NCBI GenBank assembly: GCA_900316145.1
Contig: ONBQ01000030.1
Location: 288-64,287, forward strand
Reading direction: 5' to 3'
Source: an uncultured Eubacteriales bacterium
GTDB lineage: Bacteria; Bacillota; Clostridia; Lachnospirales; Bianqueaceae
Length of the DNA stretch: 64,000 nucleotides
Made by a program: the position numbers and the translations under genes. The notes beneath the pieces are model-generated. The model was not told where the DNA came from. It worked only from the letters and a program-made list of their open reading frames with translations, and did not search any database. Shown here one piece after another: positions 35,767 to 41,738 of the stretch (position 1 is its first letter; each line of letters starts with the position of its first letter).

Positions 35767-36831
35767 ATGGAGCGCGCAGCCAGCCATACCCATAAGGAAC
35801 CGGCCTATCTTCAGATCTATTATCGATTCCGGGAAGACATCACCACCGGTACGCTGAAACCGGGCACAAAACTGCCATCCAAGAGGATCCTGGCGGAGCA
35901 GACCGGCGTCAGTGTGATCACAGTGGAGCATGCGTATCAGCTGCTCGCCGATGAGGGCTACATCGAAAGCCGCCCGCGCAGCGGTTTCTATGTTCGCTTC
36001 GGCATTGCCGCCCGGCAGGTCTGGACGCCGCCGGCCGCAGCACCTGCTCCTATTACGGAAGCGCCGGAGGACTTTCCCTTTTCTCAGCTGGCCAGGACCA
36101 TGCGCGGCGTGATCACGGATTATAACCGAAGGCTTCTGGTCAAGTCTCCCAGCAAGGGCGTGCCGGAACTGACAGAGCAGATCTGCAGTTACCTGGCGCT
36201 AAGCCGTGGTTTAAGGGTCCGGCCTGAGCAGATCGTGATCGGGTCCGGTGCGGAATACCTGTACAGCCTGGTGGTACAGCTGCTGGGGCGGGAGAGAGCC
36301 TACGCGCTGGAAGATCCGTCATATGAAAAGATCGCCCGCGTTTATGAGAGCAACGGAGCGTCTTTGGAACGTCTGGAAATGGGGGCCGATGGTATCGTTT
36401 CGTATGAACTGCAGGATTGCATGGCCGGGGTGCTGCATGTTACCCCGTTTCACAGCTATCCAAGCGGGGTAACGGCATCCGCGCACAAACGAAGAGAGTA
36501 TGCCGCGTGGGCCAGAAAGCGGGACGCCTATATCGTGGAAGATGACTATGATTCGGAATTATCTTCTGTTACCCGGCGCATTGAGACCATCTTTTCTCTG
36601 GCGCCGGAAAGAGTCATCTATATCAACACCTTTACCAAGATCCTGGCGCCGTCATTCAGGACCGGCTTCATGGTCCTGCCGGAAGGGCTTCTGGACGCCT
36701 ATCAGGAAAAGCTGGGTTTTTATTCCTGCACGGTGCCTGTTTTTGAACAATACGTGCTGGCGGAATTTATCCGCGGGGGGCATCTGGAACGGTATATCAA
36801 CCGGCAGCGCCATCATAAACGTCATGGATAA
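35767..36831 (+). CDS. MocR-subfamily GntR regulator (wHTH fused to a PLP aminotransferase-like domain)
   Basis: ATG at 35767 behind AAAGGAG; the track start at 35626 adds junk. HTH LPSKRILAEQTGVSVITVEHAYQLLADEGYI, followed by a fold-type-I domain. Confidence 0.75.
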   Translation: MERAASHTHKEPAYLQIYYRFREDITTGTLKPGTKLPSKRILAEQTGVSVITVEHAYQLLADEGYIESRPRSGFYVRFGIAARQVWTPPAAAPAPITEAPEDFPFSQLARTMRGVITDYNRRLLVKSPSKGVPELTEQICSYLALSRGLRVRPEQIVIGSGAEYLYSLVVQLLGRERAYALEDPSYEKIARVYESNGASLERLEMGADGIVSYELQDCMAGVLHVTPFHSYPSGVTASAHKRREYAAWARKRDAYIVEDDYDSELSSVTRRIETIFSLAPERVIYINTFTKILAPSFRTGFMVLPEGLLDAYQEKLGFYSCTVPVFEQYVLAEFIRGGHLERYINRQRHHKRHG

Positions 36832-36832
36832 G

Positions 36833-36858
36833 AGAGGAGACAGCCGTCTCCTCTTTTT
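36833..36858 (+). terminator. Rho-independent terminator
   Basis: AGAGGAGAC-AGCC-GTCTCCTCT, followed by TTTTGG. Confidence 0.8.
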
Positions 36859-36879
36859 GGATTTAAACCCCTGCAAGTC

Positions 36880-36908
36880 TTGTATATCCTTTGCGATTTT
36901 GGTAAAAT
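36880..36908 (+). promoter_or_regulatory. Sigma-70-type promoter of the 4-gene sugar operon
   Basis: TTGTAT (36880-36885), 17 nt, TAAAAT (36903-36908). Confidence 0.5.
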
Positions 36909-36919
36909 AGATTAGAATA

Positions 36920-36937
36920 TGTTACTGCACAGTAACA
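36920..36937. promoter_or_regulatory. Perfect 8-2-8 inverted repeat (candidate operator) at the predicted transcription start
   Basis: TGTTACTG-CA-CAGTAACA, 12 nt downstream of the -10 box. Confidence 0.45.
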
Positions 36938-36963
36938 AAAATATGGCTTTACAAGGAGATATC

Positions 36964-37647
36964 ATGAAATACTTTTTAGACAGTGCCAAGCTGGATGAGA
37001 TCCAGTATGCGTATCATGCTTTTGGGATCGATGGAGTTACTACGAACCCTCGTCACATCATGCTCAGCGGAAAGCCGTTTCTGACCGCTATCCACCTGAT
37101 CGCGGACTGGGTCGAAAAAGAAAACCTGACCGGTTATGAGCGCTTCCCCGTCTCGGTCGAGATCGATCCGCATATCGAGAAGGCGGAAGAAATGATCGAG
37201 GCGGCGCGTAAGATCGCGGCCATCAGCCCAAATTTCGCCATCAAGATCCCGATGACCGAGGATGGCGTCATTGCCGCCCGGGTGCTTGAGGCAGAGGGGA
37301 TCCGCACCAATCTGACGCTTGTTTTCTCGGCGGCGCAGGCTATCTGGGCCGGCAAGGTCGGCTCATTGTTCGTGTCTCCCTTTATCGGCTGGAAAGAGGC
37401 GAACGGGGAGGACTGCCGTCAGTATATCAAAGATATCGTCGATATTTATAAGAATTATGGATTCTATGGAAAGACGCAGATCATTTGCGCGGCCATCCGC
37501 ACGCCGAAACAGATCGTGGATTGCGCGGTCGCCGGCGCGGATATCGTGACGACCGGTCTGGCCGTCTATCAGGAAAGCTTCCATCATGCTTATACGGACC
37601 AGGGGATCCGGACATTCTGCGAAGCCTGGGACAATACAGCGAAATAA
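36964..37647 (+). CDS. Transaldolase/fructose-6-phosphate-aldolase-family enzyme (TalC/FSA class; candidate 6-deoxy-6-sulfofructose transaldolase)
   Basis: ATG at 36964 behind AAGGAG. MKYFLDSAKLDEI..GIDGVTTNPRHI, Schiff-base Lys context NFAIKIPMT. Confidence 0.8.
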   Translation: MKYFLDSAKLDEIQYAYHAFGIDGVTTNPRHIMLSGKPFLTAIHLIADWVEKENLTGYERFPVSVEIDPHIEKAEEMIEAARKIAAISPNFAIKIPMTEDGVIAARVLEAEGIRTNLTLVFSAAQAIWAGKVGSLFVSPFIGWKEANGEDCRQYIKDIVDIYKNYGFYGKTQIICAAIRTPKQIVDCAVAGADIVTTGLAVYQESFHHAYTDQGIRTFCEAWDNTAK

Positions 37648-37665
37648 ATTAAAAGGGGAAACGTT

Positions 37666-38526
37666 ATGAAGATCGGATTTATCGGGCTGGGCATCATGGG
37701 CGAGGCCATGTGCGCCAATATCGCGCGCAAGCACAATGATACGGTCTATGGCTATGATGTGCGTCCGGAGCGCTGCGCTATAGAAGGGGTCATCGCCGTC
37801 ACGAACAGTGTGGAACTGGCCCGCCTGTCAGATATCATCATTACCATGGTGCCAAAGTCAGAGCATTCAAGAGCGGTCTATGAGGAGATCTTAGACGTTC
37901 TGGGACCGGACAAGATCTGCATCGATATGAGCACGATCGAGCCTAAGGTGTCGATCGAGATCAATGAAATGGTCAGAACGCGCGGAGCCGCTTTCCTGGA
38001 CGCCCCGGTCGTAAAATCCCGCCCGGCCGCGGAAAAGGGAGAACTGGGCATCTATGTTGGCGGTCCGGAAGAAGAGTATCAGAAGATCCTGCCTGTTCTT
38101 CATTACATGGGAAGGAACGTGATCCGCATGGGTCAGAACGGAGCCGGCCTGGTCATGAAGATCTGCCATAACGCGCTGGTCTCGCAGATCCAGAACGGTG
38201 TCAATGAAACGGTCACGCTGGCGGCCGCCAACGGCATCGACGTCATGACATTCGCGGAAGCGATCTCCTACGGCGGCGGGCAGAATTTCTATCTGGACAG
38301 CAAAAAGCAGGTGATCCGCGATCAGGATTTCACCACTGCTTTTTCCATCGAGAACATGAACAAGGATGTTCATATCTGCCAGGCGCTTGCCGCAGAGAGC
38401 GGTGTTGAAATGCCGGGTGAAGAAAATGTGATCCGGGTCTATGAAAAAGCCATGGATCTGGGCCTCGGCGCAAAGGATTTCAGCGCGACCTATTCTGTCG
38501 TTTCAGGCGCGAAGAAGGAGGCATAA
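37666..38526 (+). CDS. NAD(P)-dependent beta-hydroxyacid dehydrogenase (3-hydroxyisobutyrate/tartronate-semialdehyde reductase family; candidate sulfolactaldehyde reductase)
   Basis: MKIGFIGLGIMGEAM Rossmann motif, DAPVVKS, KICHNALV.. Confidence 0.8.
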   Translation: MKIGFIGLGIMGEAMCANIARKHNDTVYGYDVRPERCAIEGVIAVTNSVELARLSDIIITMVPKSEHSRAVYEEILDVLGPDKICIDMSTIEPKVSIEINEMVRTRGAAFLDAPVVKSRPAAEKGELGIYVGGPEEEYQKILPVLHYMGRNVIRMGQNGAGLVMKICHNALVSQIQNGVNETVTLAAANGIDVMTFAEAISYGGGQNFYLDSKKQVIRDQDFTTAFSIENMNKDVHICQALAAESGVEMPGEENVIRVYEKAMDLGLGAKDFSATYSVVSGAKKEA

Positions 38527-38529
38527 AGG

Positions 38530-39840
38530 ATGAAGATCCTCTACATTCCGATCGGTGTCGGCACCTATCACATGGAAACAGCCGGAGCCTGTTTTGAAGC
38601 CTCCCGCAAATTGCTGCAGGAGATCGATCCCGAGATCATCTGCCCGGAAAGTCTGCTGCTGAGCGTGCCGGCCGTAGCCGGCTTCATCGGAGACCACACG
38701 CCGGATCTGGTGATCCTGCAAAACGTAACATTCGCCAACGCAGCCTATACGGCAGAAGTACTTCGTCGCGTTACCTGCCCTATCGTACTGTGGACGTTGA
38801 GAGAGCCGGCCGGTGAGCCGGGCGGGCGTCTGAAGATGAACGCGCTTACAGGAGCCTTCGCTTCCGCCAATACCTTGCATCAGTTCCGCGAGGAAAAGCC
38901 GGTCTTCCTGTTCGGAGATCCGGAGGAGGTCCGGACTTCCCTGACAGCTGCGATCCGGGCCGCGAAAGCCAGAAAAGCCTTAAAGGAACTGACCATTGCC
39001 GCCGTCGGCCATACGCCGCAGGGCTTCGGATTCGGGCGGGCACTGGACCAGGATCTGATGAAGACCTTCGGCTGTGAACTGATCAGCATAGAAGCCAGAG
39101 AACTGATGGAAAAAGCAAAGAACGGCGAGCCGGATGAAAAAGCATCCGAGGGGCTGGTCGGTCTGGAACAGACACCGGAGGAGCGGCGGCTCGGTTTTCT
39201 GAAACTGTATCGGGCGTATAAAGACTTTGTAGAAGAAAACCACATAGGAGCCCTGGCTTCCCGCTGCTGGCCGGACTTCTTCACGGACTATGGAACACCG
39301 GTGTGCAGCGTACTTTCTGTCCTGAACGCGGAAGGCATCCCTTGTGCGTGTGAGTGTGATATCTATGGCGCGCTGTCCATGTATCTGGGACAGCTGCTGA
39401 CCGGTTCGCCTGCGTTCTTTGGAGACCCGGTCGCGCTGAACGAAGAAGATAACACGCTTACGTTCTGGCATTGCGGCATGGCCTCCTGCAACCTGGCCCG
39501 TACGGATACAGGAGCCGCGGTAGGCGTGCATCCGAATCGCAAGATCGGACCGACCATGGAATTCGGGTTAAAGCCGGCGCAGCATGTCACGTTGCTGCGC
39601 GTCGGACGGGATAAGGATGGTTCCTTCCGCCTGTTCGTAGCGAAGGGCCGCGCCCTGGATCGGCCCAAGCAGTATCTTGGGACCTCTGTCGTGGTAGAGA
39701 CCGAGCCGGATGTGAAGGACATGGTCTCGTTCCTGCTGGAAAATGGGTATGAACCGCATTACGCAGTCATTTACGGAGACGCGGCAGAAAGCCTGGAAAT
39801 GCTGGGCCGCATGCTGAATATCAAGGTGGACCGCTTATGA
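38530..39840 (+). CDS. L-fucose/L-arabinose-isomerase-like aldose-ketose isomerase (specificity unknown)
   Basis: 436 aa. The N-terminal Rossmann-like half with ..GGRLKMNALTGAFASAN.. resembles the fucose-isomerase-like superfamily. This is a recollection-based call. Confidence 0.5.
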   Translation: MKILYIPIGVGTYHMETAGACFEASRKLLQEIDPEIICPESLLLSVPAVAGFIGDHTPDLVILQNVTFANAAYTAEVLRRVTCPIVLWTLREPAGEPGGRLKMNALTGAFASANTLHQFREEKPVFLFGDPEEVRTSLTAAIRAAKARKALKELTIAAVGHTPQGFGFGRALDQDLMKTFGCELISIEARELMEKAKNGEPDEKASEGLVGLEQTPEERRLGFLKLYRAYKDFVEENHIGALASRCWPDFFTDYGTPVCSVLSVLNAEGIPCACECDIYGALSMYLGQLLTGSPAFFGDPVALNEEDNTLTFWHCGMASCNLARTDTGAAVGVHPNRKIGPTMEFGLKPAQHVTLLRVGRDKDGSFRLFVAKGRALDRPKQYLGTSVVVETEPDVKDMVSFLLENGYEPHYAVIYGDAAESLEMLGRMLNIKVDRL

Positions 39841-41738
39841 TGGACTTGGATCAGATCCGGATCGAGGCCGGATATGGAAGCGCTTCCTTCCCGATGAAGA
39901 AGGGCAGCTTCCAGTATGATGATGTCATTACCGAGATCAAGCCATGGAATGGCCAGGTCGAGGTCGATACGCTCAATGATCAGGAATGCCGCCTACGCCT
40001 GAAAATGGAGGAAGACTTTAACCGGATCCGGATCACCTTTCCTGCCGACGCCAGACACTTTTATGGCGGCGGTGAGACCTTTTCCGAGTGGGATCTGAAG
40101 GGACAGCGCATCCGCGTTTGGGTCGCGGAGCATCAGAACGCGGACCGTATCGATCGCAAGATCGCGAGACAGGAAGAACGAGGTGTCGATCCGGAGTTCA
40201 AAGAACCGTTTGAGGCCTATGAATCCTACTATGTACAGCCTACTTTCATCACGGATACGAAGGAGTATGTCCATGTCGACACCACGGCTTTCGCCGCGTT
40301 TGACTTTACTTCCGAGGGATATGTAACGATCGAACTGTTCGAGAACGCGCCTGTCTACTTTGGAAAAGCGGATACCTTTACCGGGCTGGCTGAACTTTTG
40401 ACCAGGCGCCTCGGAAGGCAGAAATGCCTGCCGGACTGGACGCATGACGGCATGATCCTGGCCATTCAGCAAGGACCGGAAGTCATAGATCAAAAGATCC
40501 GGAAAGCCAGGAAAGCCGGCGTCCCGATCGCGGGCATCTGGAGCCAGGACTGGTGCGGCTGCCGGCGCACGGGCTTCGGTTATCAGGTCATGTGGAACTG
40601 GCGCTATGATGAAGAATTGTATGCCGGCCTGCCGGAGAAGATCCGGGAATGGAACAAGGAAGGGATCCGCTTCCTTGGCTACATCAACCCATTCATGGCC
40701 ATCGAAAAAGATATCTACCGCTACGCTTCCGAACACGGTTACTGCGTGAAAGACAAAGAAGGCAAGGATTATCTGGTCACCATCACCACCTTCCCGGCGG
40801 CCATGATCGACCTGACCAACCCGGATGCCTATGACTGGTATAAAGGACTGATCAAAAAGAATCTGATCGGCTTAGGGCTGTCCGGCTGGATGGCGGATTT
40901 CGGCGAATACCTGCCTGTTGACTGTGTCCTGTATTCCGGAGCGGATCCGTGGAAGATCCACAATGAGTGGCCGGCCATCTGGGCTAAGCTGAACCGGGAA
41001 GCGGTCTTGGAAAGCGGCAAGGAGGGCGAAGTTTTCTTCTTCACCCGCGCGGGCTACACCGGAACCATCCGGGAGTCGACCATGATGTGGACCGGGGACC
41101 AGCATGTGGATTGGTCTCTGGATGACGGGCTGGCGTCCGTGATCCCGGCCACGCTTTCTCTGGCAGTCTGCGGCTATGGCCTGAGCCATTCCGATGTCGG
41201 TGGATACACCACCATCGGTCCCATTACACGAACGCGGGAACTGCTGATGCGTTGGGAGGAGATGAACGCGTTTTCTCCGCTCATGCGCAGCCATGAGGGC
41301 AACCGACCCTCTTTGAATGTTCAGTTCGATGATGATGAAGAACTGTTAGCGCATCTGAAGCGCTGTGTCGATATCCACGTCAGTTTAAAAGAGTATCTGA
41401 AAGAACTGGAGCGCTTCAACGAAGAAAAAGGGATCCCCGTTATGCGGCCGCTCTTCTATCACTATGATGAGGATTGGACCTACTCAGAATCCTTTGAGTA
41501 CCTGCTGGGAAAGGATCTGCTCGTCGCGCCAGTCATCAAGCAGGGAGCGACCACGCGAACGGTGCATCTGCCTGAGGACCGCTGGGAGCATGTCTGGACC
41601 GGGCAGACTTATGAGGGAGGAACCGTAACGGTCGAAGCGCCGCTGGGGCAGATCCCCGTATTTATACGCAAAGATTCCGAATGGTATGACGCGATCAAGA
41701 AAGGATTCTGCGCCTGGCGCGAGGAGGCGAAAGCTTAA
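39837..41738 (+). CDS. GH31 alpha-glycosidase of the YihQ (sulfoquinovosidase) subfamily
   Basis: 633 aa, with ATGA overlap with the previous gene. GIWSQDWCG..VMWNW, GWMADFGEYLP (nucleophile Asp), MMWTGDQHVDWSLDDGLASVIPA, HSDVGGYTT, PLMRSHEGNRP. Confidence 0.8.
   Translation: MMDLDQIRIEAGYGSASFPMKKGSFQYDDVITEIKPWNGQVEVDTLNDQECRLRLKMEEDFNRIRITFPADARHFYGGGETFSEWDLKGQRIRVWVAEHQNADRIDRKIARQEERGVDPEFKEPFEAYESYYVQPTFITDTKEYVHVDTTAFAAFDFTSEGYVTIELFENAPVYFGKADTFTGLAELLTRRLGRQKCLPDWTHDGMILAIQQGPEVIDQKIRKARKAGVPIAGIWSQDWCGCRRTGFGYQVMWNWRYDEELYAGLPEKIREWNKEGIRFLGYINPFMAIEKDIYRYASEHGYCVKDKEGKDYLVTITTFPAAMIDLTNPDAYDWYKGLIKKNLIGLGLSGWMADFGEYLPVDCVLYSGADPWKIHNEWPAIWAKLNREAVLESGKEGEVFFFTRAGYTGTIRESTMMWTGDQHVDWSLDDGLASVIPATLSLAVCGYGLSHSDVGGYTTIGPITRTRELLMRWEEMNAFSPLMRSHEGNRPSLNVQFDDDEELLAHLKRCVDIHVSLKEYLKELERFNEEKGIPVMRPLFYHYDEDWTYSESFEYLLGKDLLVAPVIKQGATTRTVHLPEDRWEHVWTGQTYEGGTVTVEAPLGQIPVFIRKDSEWYDAIKKGFCAWREEAKA

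What the first reader, a model, noticed from the sequence alone, without database searches (positions are those of the whole stretch)
40575..40595. The YihQ-like GH31 appears to have Gln where sulfoquinovosidases have the sulfonate-binding Arg
Published SQase structures (E. coli YihQ, Agrobacterium SQase) describe a sulfonate-recognition triad of Arg, Trp and Tyr: R301, W304 and Y508 in YihQ.

In my remembered YihQ sequence the first two residues lie in ..SFGKRVMWNW... Here the collinear segment reads ..GFGYQVMWNW.., with Q250 encoded at 40584-40586. The Trp (W253) and the Tyr in HSDVGGYTT are kept, but Arg is replaced by neutral Gln.

If the alignment is right, there are two readings:
- The enzyme and the whole operon act on a non-sulfonated 6-modified glucoside. 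One example would be a 6-deoxyglucose (quinovose) version of the transaldolase pathway ending in lactaldehyde and propanediol.
- Sulfonate recognition is achieved differently; note the adjacent extra Arg in GCRRTGFG.

Either reading would be new.
Basis: partly seen in the sequence, partly recalled or inferred. Interest (0 to 1): 0.6.

Follow-up and report, generated by a model that had tools for sequence, protein, structure and literature searches.

The report
Arginine-free sulfoquinovosidase in sulfosugar operon
This rumen bacterium's enzyme for releasing the plant sulfosugar sulfoquinovose has glutamine where every tested relative has the arginine that holds the sulfonate group. The change is a conserved trait of a large untested sister branch of the family, and that branch still sits in ordinary sulfoquinovose-degradation operons.

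Summary
Codon 250 (CAG, 40584-40586) of the GH31 gene at 39837-41738 aligns without gaps to Arg301 of E. coli YihQ and to the equivalent Arg in all four solved sulfoquinovosidases. Trp253, Tyr457, both catalytic Asp and the Gln/Gln pair are kept.

It is not an error. All 120 closest homologues and about 60 genomic loci read FGYQVMWNW.

The Gln co-varies with a second change, Gly368 to Thr (here Thr317, loop TITTFPAAMI in place of EFGEFYGGVV).

On the tree this Gln/Thr clade is sister to the clade that holds every characterised enzyme.

The neighbouring transaldolase, reductase and isomerase are 74, 61 and 55% identical to the E. rectale sulfo-transaldolase pathway enzymes. Homologous Gln-type clusters add DUF4867 and a TauE exporter. 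A related Gln-type enzyme sits in a transketolase-type sulfosugar cluster. All 21 carrier genomes checked have no second YihQ-family gene.

Best reading (about 0.7): a working sulfoquinovosidase with a remodelled Gln/Thr sulfonate pocket.

The "extra Arg244" idea is weak, because that site is Cys or Asn in some clade members. The quinovose-pathway idea is unlikely.

No biochemistry exists for this branch, and I found no published description of it.

The parts
39837..41738 (+). YihQ/SftG-family GH31 glycosidase (633 aa), Gln/Thr ('YQ') type
   Evidence: NCBIfam PRK10426 scores 760 bits against a cut-off of 553. The protein is 50% identical to E. coli YihQ and 43% to E. rectale SftG. The AF2 model has pLDDT 92 and TM 0.90-0.93 to all solved SQases.
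40584..40586 (+). Codon 250, CAG = Gln, at the position of the sulfonate-binding Arg301 of E. coli YihQ
   Evidence: Gap-free alignments to four solved SQases. Conserved in 121 of 121 nearest homologues.
40557..40601 (+). Hairpin motif G241-W255, GCRRTGFGYQVMWNW. It includes R243 (Ec R294), R244 (Ec M295), Y249 (Ec K300), Q250 and W253 (Ec W304).
   Evidence: DSSP on the AF2 model gives strands 242-245 and 248-251 with a turn at 246-247. This implies cross-strand pairs R243/Q250 and R244/Y249. pLDDT for this block is only 72.
40779..40808 (+). Remodelled loop T315-I324, TITTFPAAMI (EFGEFYGGVV in E. coli YihQ). T317 replaces Gly368.
   Evidence: This is the column with the highest mutual information with the R/Q state: Arg types have G in 43 of 51, Gln types have T or S in 55 of 66. 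About 5 of 7 independent contrasts go the same way and none the opposite way.
40896..40898 (+). D354, catalytic nucleophile (Ec D405) in GWMADFGEYLP
   Evidence: invariant column.
41097..41099 (+). D421, general acid/base (Ec D472) in WTGDQHVDW
41205..41207 (+). Y457 (Ec Y508) in HSDVGGYTT, the retained Tyr of the sulfonate triad
38530..39840 (+). SftI-type sulfoquinovose isomerase (fucose-isomerase-like)
   Evidence: NCBIfam NF048012 at 388 bits, below the cut-off of 700. It is 55% identical to the E. rectale cluster isomerase.
37666..38526 (+). SftR-type sulfolactaldehyde reductase (beta-hydroxyacid dehydrogenase family)
   Evidence: 61% identical to E. rectale SftR. It has the same residues as SftR at the positions matching YihU 123, 174 and 178.
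36964..37647 (+). SftT-type sulfofructose transaldolase (TalC/FSA class)
   Evidence: 74% identical to the E. rectale cluster transaldolase. An AAGGAG ribosome-binding site lies before the ATG at 36964.
35767..36831 (+). MocR/PdxR-like GntR-aminotransferase regulator, adjacent to the operon
   Evidence: NCBIfam NF052282 at 381 bits. Its link to the operon is by position only.

Best explanation
The gene encodes a functional retaining GH31 sulfoquinovosidase. It is the entry enzyme of a four-gene sulfo-transaldolase operon in a ruminant-gut Clostridia bacterium. It cleaves sulfoquinovosyl glycerol or other SQ glycosides to SQ. SQ is then isomerised to sulfofructose, split by the transaldolase, and the resulting sulfolactaldehyde is reduced to DHPS.

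The enzyme belongs to a large sister clade of the characterised SQases. In this clade the sulfonate pocket is built differently. The Arg301/Gly368 pair of E. coli YihQ is replaced by Gln250/Thr317, while Trp253 and Tyr457 are retained.

The most likely mechanism is recognition of the sulfonate mainly by hydrogen bonds from Gln, Thr, Trp and Tyr/water. The conserved neighbouring Arg243 may contribute charge.

Shown here:
- the substitution and its conservation
- its coupling to Thr317
- the fold
- the phylogenetic position
- the operon context

Inferred:
- the substrate
- the geometry of the pocket
For: 1. All catalytic and other SQase-signature residues are kept: D354, D421, W253, Y457, Q237 and Q211. 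The model superposes on all four solved SQases with TM 0.90-0.93, against 0.75 for other GH31 enzymes.

2. The window's transaldolase, reductase and isomerase are 74, 61 and 55% identical to those of the E. rectale cluster. The glycosidase of that cluster is a proven SQase, and the cluster is induced by SQ.

3. Among 56 named genomic loci, Gln-type genes sit almost always beside TAL, reductase, DUF4867, isomerase and ROK genes, often with TauE. The abundant human-gut homologue P0090 has the full set.

4. Related Gln/Thr enzymes sit in a transketolase-type sulfosugar cluster (P0122) and in another sulfo-TAL cluster (P0123).

5. All 21 carrier genomes checked have this as their only YihQ-family gene, which argues for replacement rather than a paralogue.

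6. R301/G368 and Q/T(S) co-vary across the family, as expected for two packings of one pocket.

7. There is precedent for sulfonate binding without an Arg side chain in the same pathway. YihU uses Asn174, Ser178 and a backbone NH. GH31 SqgH lacks the RWY motif yet is an active SQase.

8. The organism lives in bovine and sheep gut, a habitat rich in plant sulfolipid. Fragments of the operon occur in gut metatranscriptomes.
Against: - No member of the Gln/Thr clade has been assayed.
- Every biochemically or structurally characterised GH31_13 SQase has the Arg.
- From memory only, and not checkable here: E. coli YihQ R301 variants were reported to be essentially inactive.
- Gln/Thr is also the common state in the wider, uncharacterised YihQ-like family, so it is not in itself a sulfonate signature.
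- The window's own operon lacks an importer, DUF4867 and a TauE exporter. The genome's only DUF4867 and TauE genes lie on other contigs.
- SQ growth tests in the literature use free SQ, which bypasses the glycosidase.
- I could not obtain coordinates of the model, and the hairpin has its lowest core confidence (pLDDT 72). The pocket geometry is therefore inference.
Confidence: 0.7

Rival explanations
1. The Gln/Thr enzymes act on a different, uncharged or differently charged 6-modified alpha-glucoside, such as a quinovoside or glucosyl-glycerol. Either the whole operon processes that analogue, or the glycosidase supplies a second substrate to an SQ pathway.
For: - The one residue that supplies charge complementarity is lost.
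- Gln/Thr is the majority state in the wider YihQ-like family, whose substrates are unknown.
- The window operon has no sulfonate exporter of its own.
Against: - The downstream enzymes are 55-77% identical to the E. rectale SQ-pathway enzymes.
- The reductase has the same residues as E. rectale SftR at the three checked positions.
- TauE exporters and DUF4867 occur in most sister clusters.
- Gln-type enzymes also occur in a sulfo-TK-type cluster.
- No canonical SQase is present anywhere in 21 carrier genomes.
- The other sulfonate-pocket residues, Trp and Tyr, are strictly kept.
Confidence: 0.14
2. Sulfonate is still bound by an arginine, but a relocated one. R244 or R243 swings into the place of R301, so recognition stays electrostatic.
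For: - R244 is R or K in most clade members, where Arg-type enzymes have M, I, V or Q.
- In the AF2 model, R243 is the cross-strand neighbour of Q250 on the same hairpin.
- R243 is invariant in the aligned set.
Against: - R244 is Cys in all Butyrivibrio-type members and Asn in two others, although these sit in complete clusters.
- R244 is Ile in the related Gln-type enzymes P0122 and P0123.
- There is no consistent phylogenetic coupling of a basic residue at this site with the Gln state.
- R243 is equally present in Arg-type SQases, where it is not listed among the sulfonate ligands. It cannot be called a compensating change.
- Hairpin confidence is modest.
Confidence: 0.12
3. The glycosidase is a decaying or low-activity relic kept in an operon that now feeds only on free SQ released by other community members.
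For: The key Arg is absent. The window operon is minimal and has no dedicated importer.
Against: - The whole pocket motif is under strong purifying selection across dozens of species at 55-70% overall identity.
- The Thr317 codon uses all four synonymous codons while the residue stays fixed.
- All frames are intact, and the catalytic residues are invariant.
Confidence: 0.04

Closest known systems
E. coli YihQ (PDB 5AED/5AEE/5OHT), the founding GH31 sulfoquinovosidase (CAZy GH31_13)
   Same: - 50% identity over about 600 residues.
- Same fold (TM 0.91).
- Same catalytic Asp pair, Gln288/Gln262 pair, Trp304 and Tyr508 equivalents.
- Encoded next to SQ catabolic genes.
   Different: - Arg301 is replaced by Gln250, Gly368 by Thr317, Lys300 by Tyr249 and Met295 by Arg244.
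- The loop EFGEFYGGVV becomes TITTFPAAMI.
- About 45 residues shorter at the N-terminus.
- Embedded in a transaldolase pathway, not an EMP-type pathway.
Eubacterium rectale SftG (EUBREC_2592, PDB 6PNR) and its sulfo-SFT/TAL cluster
   Same: - Same pathway architecture: transaldolase, reductase and isomerase are 74, 61 and 55% identical.
- Same gut Clostridia setting.
- Gln-type sister clusters share DUF4867, TauE and ROK.
   Different: - The glycosidases are only 43% identical and fall in different sister clades.
- SftG has the canonical KR...DFGEF pocket and measured kinetics on PNP-SQ.
- The window operon lacks the SSF importer, DUF4867, TauE and glycerol genes, and has a MocR-type rather than a ROK regulator.
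Alteromonas macleodii SqgH (GH31, outside GH31_13; Nat Commun 2025, PMC12780224)
   Same: A GH31 SQase shown to work without the Q/E-RWY motif. This proves that the Arg301-type pocket is not the only solution.
   Different: - Only about 28% identical to YihQ, and a separate clade.
- Predicted ligands are R302, T377, K412 and F513.
- The present enzyme keeps the Trp and Tyr and is a close relative of YihQ.
SLA reductase YihU sulfonate pocket
   Same: It binds a sulfonate through Asn174, Ser178 and a backbone amide, with no Arg side chain. This is the same logic as that proposed for Gln250/Thr317.
   Different: Unrelated fold and reaction. It is an analogy only.

Membership tests
GH31_13 sulfoquinovosidase (YihQ/SftG) | GH31 fold with catalytic nucleophile Asp (Ec D405) and acid/base Asp (Ec D472) | tested here: met
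   D354 and D421 align and are invariant. Foldseek TM is 0.90-0.93 to 5OHT, 8R56, 6PNR and 5OHY.
GH31_13 sulfoquinovosidase (YihQ/SftG) | Sulfonate-binding Arg (Ec R301 / At R283) | tested here: not met
   Gln250 occupies this position in gap-free alignments to all four solved SQases.
GH31_13 sulfoquinovosidase (YihQ/SftG) | Trp (Ec W304) and Tyr (Ec Y508) of the sulfonate triad | tested here: met
   W253 and Y457.
GH31_13 sulfoquinovosidase (YihQ/SftG) | Gln288/Gln262 pair (or Glu/Lys) | tested here: met
   Q237 and Q211.
GH31_13 sulfoquinovosidase (YihQ/SftG) | Falls in the same clade as the characterised SQases | tested here: inconclusive
   It lies inside a 99% SH-aLRT clade shared with them, but in the Gln-only sister branch (98%), not among the Arg-type enzymes.
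GH31_13 sulfoquinovosidase (YihQ/SftG) | Encoded within a sulfoglycolysis gene cluster | tested here: met
GH31_13 sulfoquinovosidase (YihQ/SftG) | Hydrolyses PNP-alpha-SQ or SQ-glycerol selectively over glucosides | not testable with these tools
I found no published assay of any Gln/Thr member.
Sulfo-transaldolase (sulfo-SFT/TAL) gene cluster | SftI isomerase, SftT transaldolase and SftR reductase together | tested here: met
   55, 74 and 61% identity to the E. rectale cluster proteins, tightly packed and co-oriented.
Sulfo-transaldolase (sulfo-SFT/TAL) gene cluster | Dedicated SQ/SQGro importer and DHPS exporter (TauE type), and DUF4867 (SftX) | tested here: not met
   Absent from the window operon. 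They are present in most homologous Gln-type clusters. In this genome, DUF4867 and TauE lie on other contigs.

The most novel reading that the evidence does not exclude
The Gln/Thr branch of the YihQ family may be a separate specificity class that does not hydrolyse sulfoquinovosides at all. It would instead take a neutral or differently charged 6-modified alpha-glucoside. In that case many gut and rumen 'sft' and 'sulfo-TK' clusters now annotated as sulfoquinovose pathways would have a different or second entry substrate.

A milder version is more likely (about 0.4). Here the charge-neutral Gln/Thr pocket is the ancestral way this family binds sulfonate, and the 'essential' arginine is a later invention of one sub-clade.
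Probability: 0.12. Interest if true: 0.85.

Novelty: new variant of a known kind. Interest (0 to 1): 0.55.

Why it matters
[quoted passage not shown] Its gut fermentation feeds H2S-producing bacteria.

Surveys of who can use it rely on YihQ, in some cases via motifs built from the Arg/Trp/Tyr signature residues.

A whole sister clade lacks the Arg. It includes a very prevalent human-gut Roseburia-like species (P0090 is indexed in 1213 blocks of the assembly collection) and many rumen Lachnospiraceae, Butyrivibrio and Erysipelotrichaceae.

Two outcomes are possible:
- If these enzymes are active, the accepted rule for recognising SQases is too narrow, and the family offers a natural example of anion recognition without a cation.
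- If they are not active on SQ glycosides, a substantial share of predicted SQ-glycoside degraders is mis-annotated.

Either outcome can be tested directly with existing substrates such as PNP-SQ and SQGro.

Tried and rejected
- **Sequencing or assembly error (CAG vs CGG).** Rejected. 62 of 62 independent copies read CAG. CAG is 90% of Gln codons in these genes, and other conserved Gln sites show the same bias.
- **R244 as the compensating cation.** Rejected as a general explanation.
- **K300 loss as the coupled change.** No coupling found.
- **YihU sulfonate residues as a test of the reductase.** Uninformative. SftR-type reductases, including E. rectale's, differ from YihU at these sites. The window protein simply matches E. 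rectale.
- **Literature on the SQase pocket.**
  - The Abayakoon 2018, Speciale 2016 and Snow 2023 papers are not held. R301 mutant data and SftT sulfonate residues therefore could not be checked.
  - One broad six-term literature search was wasted.
- **Search for an experimentally SQ-grown carrier of a Gln-type enzyme.** None found. Faecalicatena uses GH188. The E. clostridioformis, C. symbiosum and E. gilvus enzymes could not be typed here.
- **Context of the wider long-form family.** Uninformative. P0169 is on a short contig, and P0157 sits beside glycerol genes only.
- **Residue distances in the AF2 model.** The tool returns no coordinates.
- **Linking the genome's DUF4867 and TauE to the operon.** They lie on other contigs in unrelated or truncated contexts.
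Full report
**1. The observation**

The ORF 39837-41738 (+) encodes a 633-aa GH31 protein. Bases 40575-40595 read F-G-Y-Q-V-M-W, and Q250 is CAG at 40584-40586.

phmmer against all PDB chains gives the sulfoquinovosidases as the top hits:
- E. coli YihQ, E = 5e-192
- B. megaterium BmSQase 8R56, E = 1e-178
- E. rectale SftG 6PNR, E = 8e-166
- A. tumefaciens SQase 5OHY, E = 9e-149

The next GH31 structures score around 1e-38.

Around the site the alignments have no gaps. The window reads SQDWCGCRRTGFGYQVMWNW. The solved enzymes read:
- YihQ: AQDWSGIRMTSFGKRVMWNW
- 8R56: CQDWQGKRITSFGKRLMWNW
- 6PNR: CQDWCGKRVTSFGKRLQWDW
- 5OHY: CEDWVGLRQTSFGARLFWDW

On the K-12 gene the Arg is residue 301. The literature names Arg301-Trp304-Tyr508(H2O) as the E. 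coli sulfonate pocket.

Arg is replaced by Gln, while these are kept:
- W253 and Y457
- the catalytic D354 and D421
- the Q237/Q211 pair

**2. It is a clade trait, not an accident**

- All 120 closest proteins in a 5.8-billion-sequence collection (58-99% identity) read GCR[RK]T.FGYQVMWNW.
- So do the genes at 50 named genomic loci, nine genomes of the window's own family and three human-gut contigs.
- The Gln codon is always CAG. CAG is 90% of Gln codons in these genes, and other conserved Gln sites look the same.
- The partner Thr uses all four codons.

**3. A second, coupled change**

Earlier notes of this scan on other genomes mentioned a "Gln/Thr" pocket. I treated that as a lead and tested it.

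I used a MAFFT alignment of 166 family members mapped to E. coli numbering. The column with the highest mutual information with the R/Q state is Gly368:
- Arg types have Gly in 43 of 51.
- Gln types have Thr or Ser in 55 of 66.

Its neighbours 366, 367 and 369 come next. In the window this is T317, in the loop TITTFPAAMI. The solved enzymes have (D/E)FGEF(Y/D)(C/G)GVV.

On a tree, about 5 of 7 phylogenetically independent R/Q contrasts change Gly and Thr in the same direction and none in the opposite direction. The sign test gives a median p of 0.06 and is limited by the number of contrasts.

A basic residue at the R244 position and Lys at position 300 show no such coupling. R244 is Cys in the Butyrivibrio enzymes and Asn in two others.

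**4. Fold**

The AlphaFold2 model was built from 56 sequences and has mean pLDDT 92.2 and pTM 0.93. It matches all four solved SQases at TM 0.90-0.93. The best non-SQase GH31 reaches 0.75-0.77.

DSSP gives a hairpin with strands 242-245 and 248-251 and a turn at G246-F247. This implies that:
- R243 and Q250 are cross-strand neighbours
- R244 pairs with Y249 on the other face

Confidence here is the lowest of the barrel core (pLDDT 72 for residues 241-250). No coordinates are available, so this is only a hint.

R243 corresponds to R294 of YihQ and is present in the Arg-type enzymes too.

**5. Phylogeny**

FastTree on 136 sequences and IQ-TREE on 55 agree. A strongly supported clade (97-99%) splits into two:
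- an Arg-only branch holding all four characterised SQases
- a Gln-only sister branch (91-98%) holding the window's "YQ" clade and "KQ" relatives such as P0122 and P0123

The lineages just outside are mostly Gln/Thr. In the wider, uncharacterised YihQ-like family the state changed at least 8-13 times.

The Arg may therefore be the derived state. The root is not established.

**6. Context**

The gene is the last of four tightly packed genes. All three upstream partners were compared with the E. rectale cluster (L078, fetched through its SftG):

| Gene | Coordinates | Identity to E. rectale |
|---|---|---|
| TalC/FSA-type transaldolase | 36964-37647 | 74% |
| beta-hydroxyacid reductase | 37666-38526 | 61% |
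| fucose-isomerase-like SftI | 38530-39840 | 55% |
| GH31 glycosidase | 39837-41738 | 43% |

E. rectale SftG has measured kinetics on PNP-SQ and a structure with IFGSQ. Its cluster is induced on SQ.

The reductase carries the same residues as E. rectale SftR at the sites that bind sulfonate in YihU.

Across 56 named loci the Gln-type gene is nearly always followed by a transporter, TAL, reductase, DUF4867, isomerase and ROK, often with TauE.

The abundant human-gut homologue P0090 has the order GH31-TAL-reductase-DUF4867-TauE-isomerase-ROK. Its proteins are 55-77% identical to those of E. rectale.

P0123 (Clostridium sp.) lies in another sulfo-TAL cluster. P0122 lies beside a split transketolase, an RpiB-type isomerase, DUF4867 and an SftI-like isomerase, which is the sulfo-TK layout.

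Frommeyer et al. already listed Butyrivibrio sft clusters, without remark on the glycosidase.

**7. Replacement, not paralogy**

- The window's genome (92% complete) has no other YihQ-family gene.
- Neither do eight relatives in its family.
- Neither do twelve further carriers, including three cultured Butyrivibrio strains.

**8. Habitat and expression**

The operon is found in bovine and sheep gut metagenomes. Short contigs from bovine-gut metatranscriptomes cover all four genes, including codon 250 unchanged. Depth is low and DNA carry-over cannot be excluded.

**9. Interpretation**

The downstream chemistry is the known sulfo-transaldolase route. The glycosidase is therefore most probably its SQase, with a Gln250/Thr317/Trp253/Tyr457 pocket.

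There are three precedents for binding an anion by hydrogen bonds:
- the YihU sulfonate pocket, which lacks an Arg side chain
- GH31 SqgH, which is active without the RWY motif
- from general knowledge, the sulfate-binding protein, which holds sulfate by hydrogen bonds alone

Whether R243 adds charge is open.

The quinovose/propanediol idea would require enzymes 55-77% identical to SQ-pathway enzymes, together with TauE exporters, to work on an uncharged analogue. I give it and related "other substrate" readings about 0.14.

**10. Novelty**

I found no paper in the searchable library that describes an Arg-free GH31_13 branch. Key subscription papers could not be read.

The operon itself is an ordinary member of a known pathway. 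The new element is the pocket variant and its breadth. Other agents of this scan have independently met the same variant in other genomes. That is a repeat of the idea, not independent support.

**11. Limits**

- There is no biochemistry for this branch.
- There is no 3D measurement.
- The operon here is minimal, with no importer, exporter or DUF4867. The genome's DUF4867 and TauE genes are elsewhere.

Noticed in passing
window 35767-41738: The sulfo-TAL operon here is a stripped-down four-gene version. It has a MocR/PdxR-like regulator instead of the ROK regulator seen in almost all homologous clusters. It has no importer, DUF4867 or TauE exporter.
   Followed up: partly
L083 7658-9800 (own genome, contig C10 end): The genome's only DUF4867 gene sits beside a second, larger (493 aa) fucose-isomerase-like gene at the very end of a contig. 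That gene is only weakly SftI-like (51 bits). This may be the truncated edge of another ketose or sulfosugar cluster.
   Followed up: partly
L084 3487-8194 (own genome, contig C176): The only TauE-family gene lies between an SNF-type sodium symporter, an OYE-like flavin oxidoreductase and a Gfo/Idh/MocA oxidoreductase. I established no link to the SQ operon.
   Followed up: partly
P0124 (652 aa, inside the YQ clade on both trees): A divergent clade member has Val at the 301 position, Ala at 368 and Phe for the Tyr508 equivalent. Its pocket is degenerate or has been put to a new use.
   Followed up: no
L024, L026, L038, L041, L042, L046-L049 (Erysipelotrichaceae and Solobacterium MAGs): YQ-type GH31 genes sit with reductase, DUF4867 and isomerase genes, but no transaldolase hit within the flanks. 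The cleavage enzyme of these clusters is unidentified.
   Followed up: no
L086 (P0157, 742-aa Arg/Gly-type long-form YihQ-like): This gene lies beside glycerol kinase and the anaerobic glycerol-3-phosphate dehydrogenase genes, but no sulfosugar catabolic genes are visible. This hints that long-form members also cleave glycosyl-glycerols.
   Followed up: no
window 40557-40616 (residues 241-260): The sulfonate-pocket hairpin has the lowest AlphaFold confidence of the barrel core (pLDDT 72-81, against over 90 around it). This may reflect mobility or conflicting signal from Arg-type rows in the alignment.
   Followed up: no
G033 and G035 (Butyrivibrio sp. MB2005 and WCD3002): The six-frame match to SftG reports one TAA inside the matched span in two Butyrivibrio genomes. 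It is probably read-through past the natural stop at the C-terminus. I did not check.
   Followed up: no
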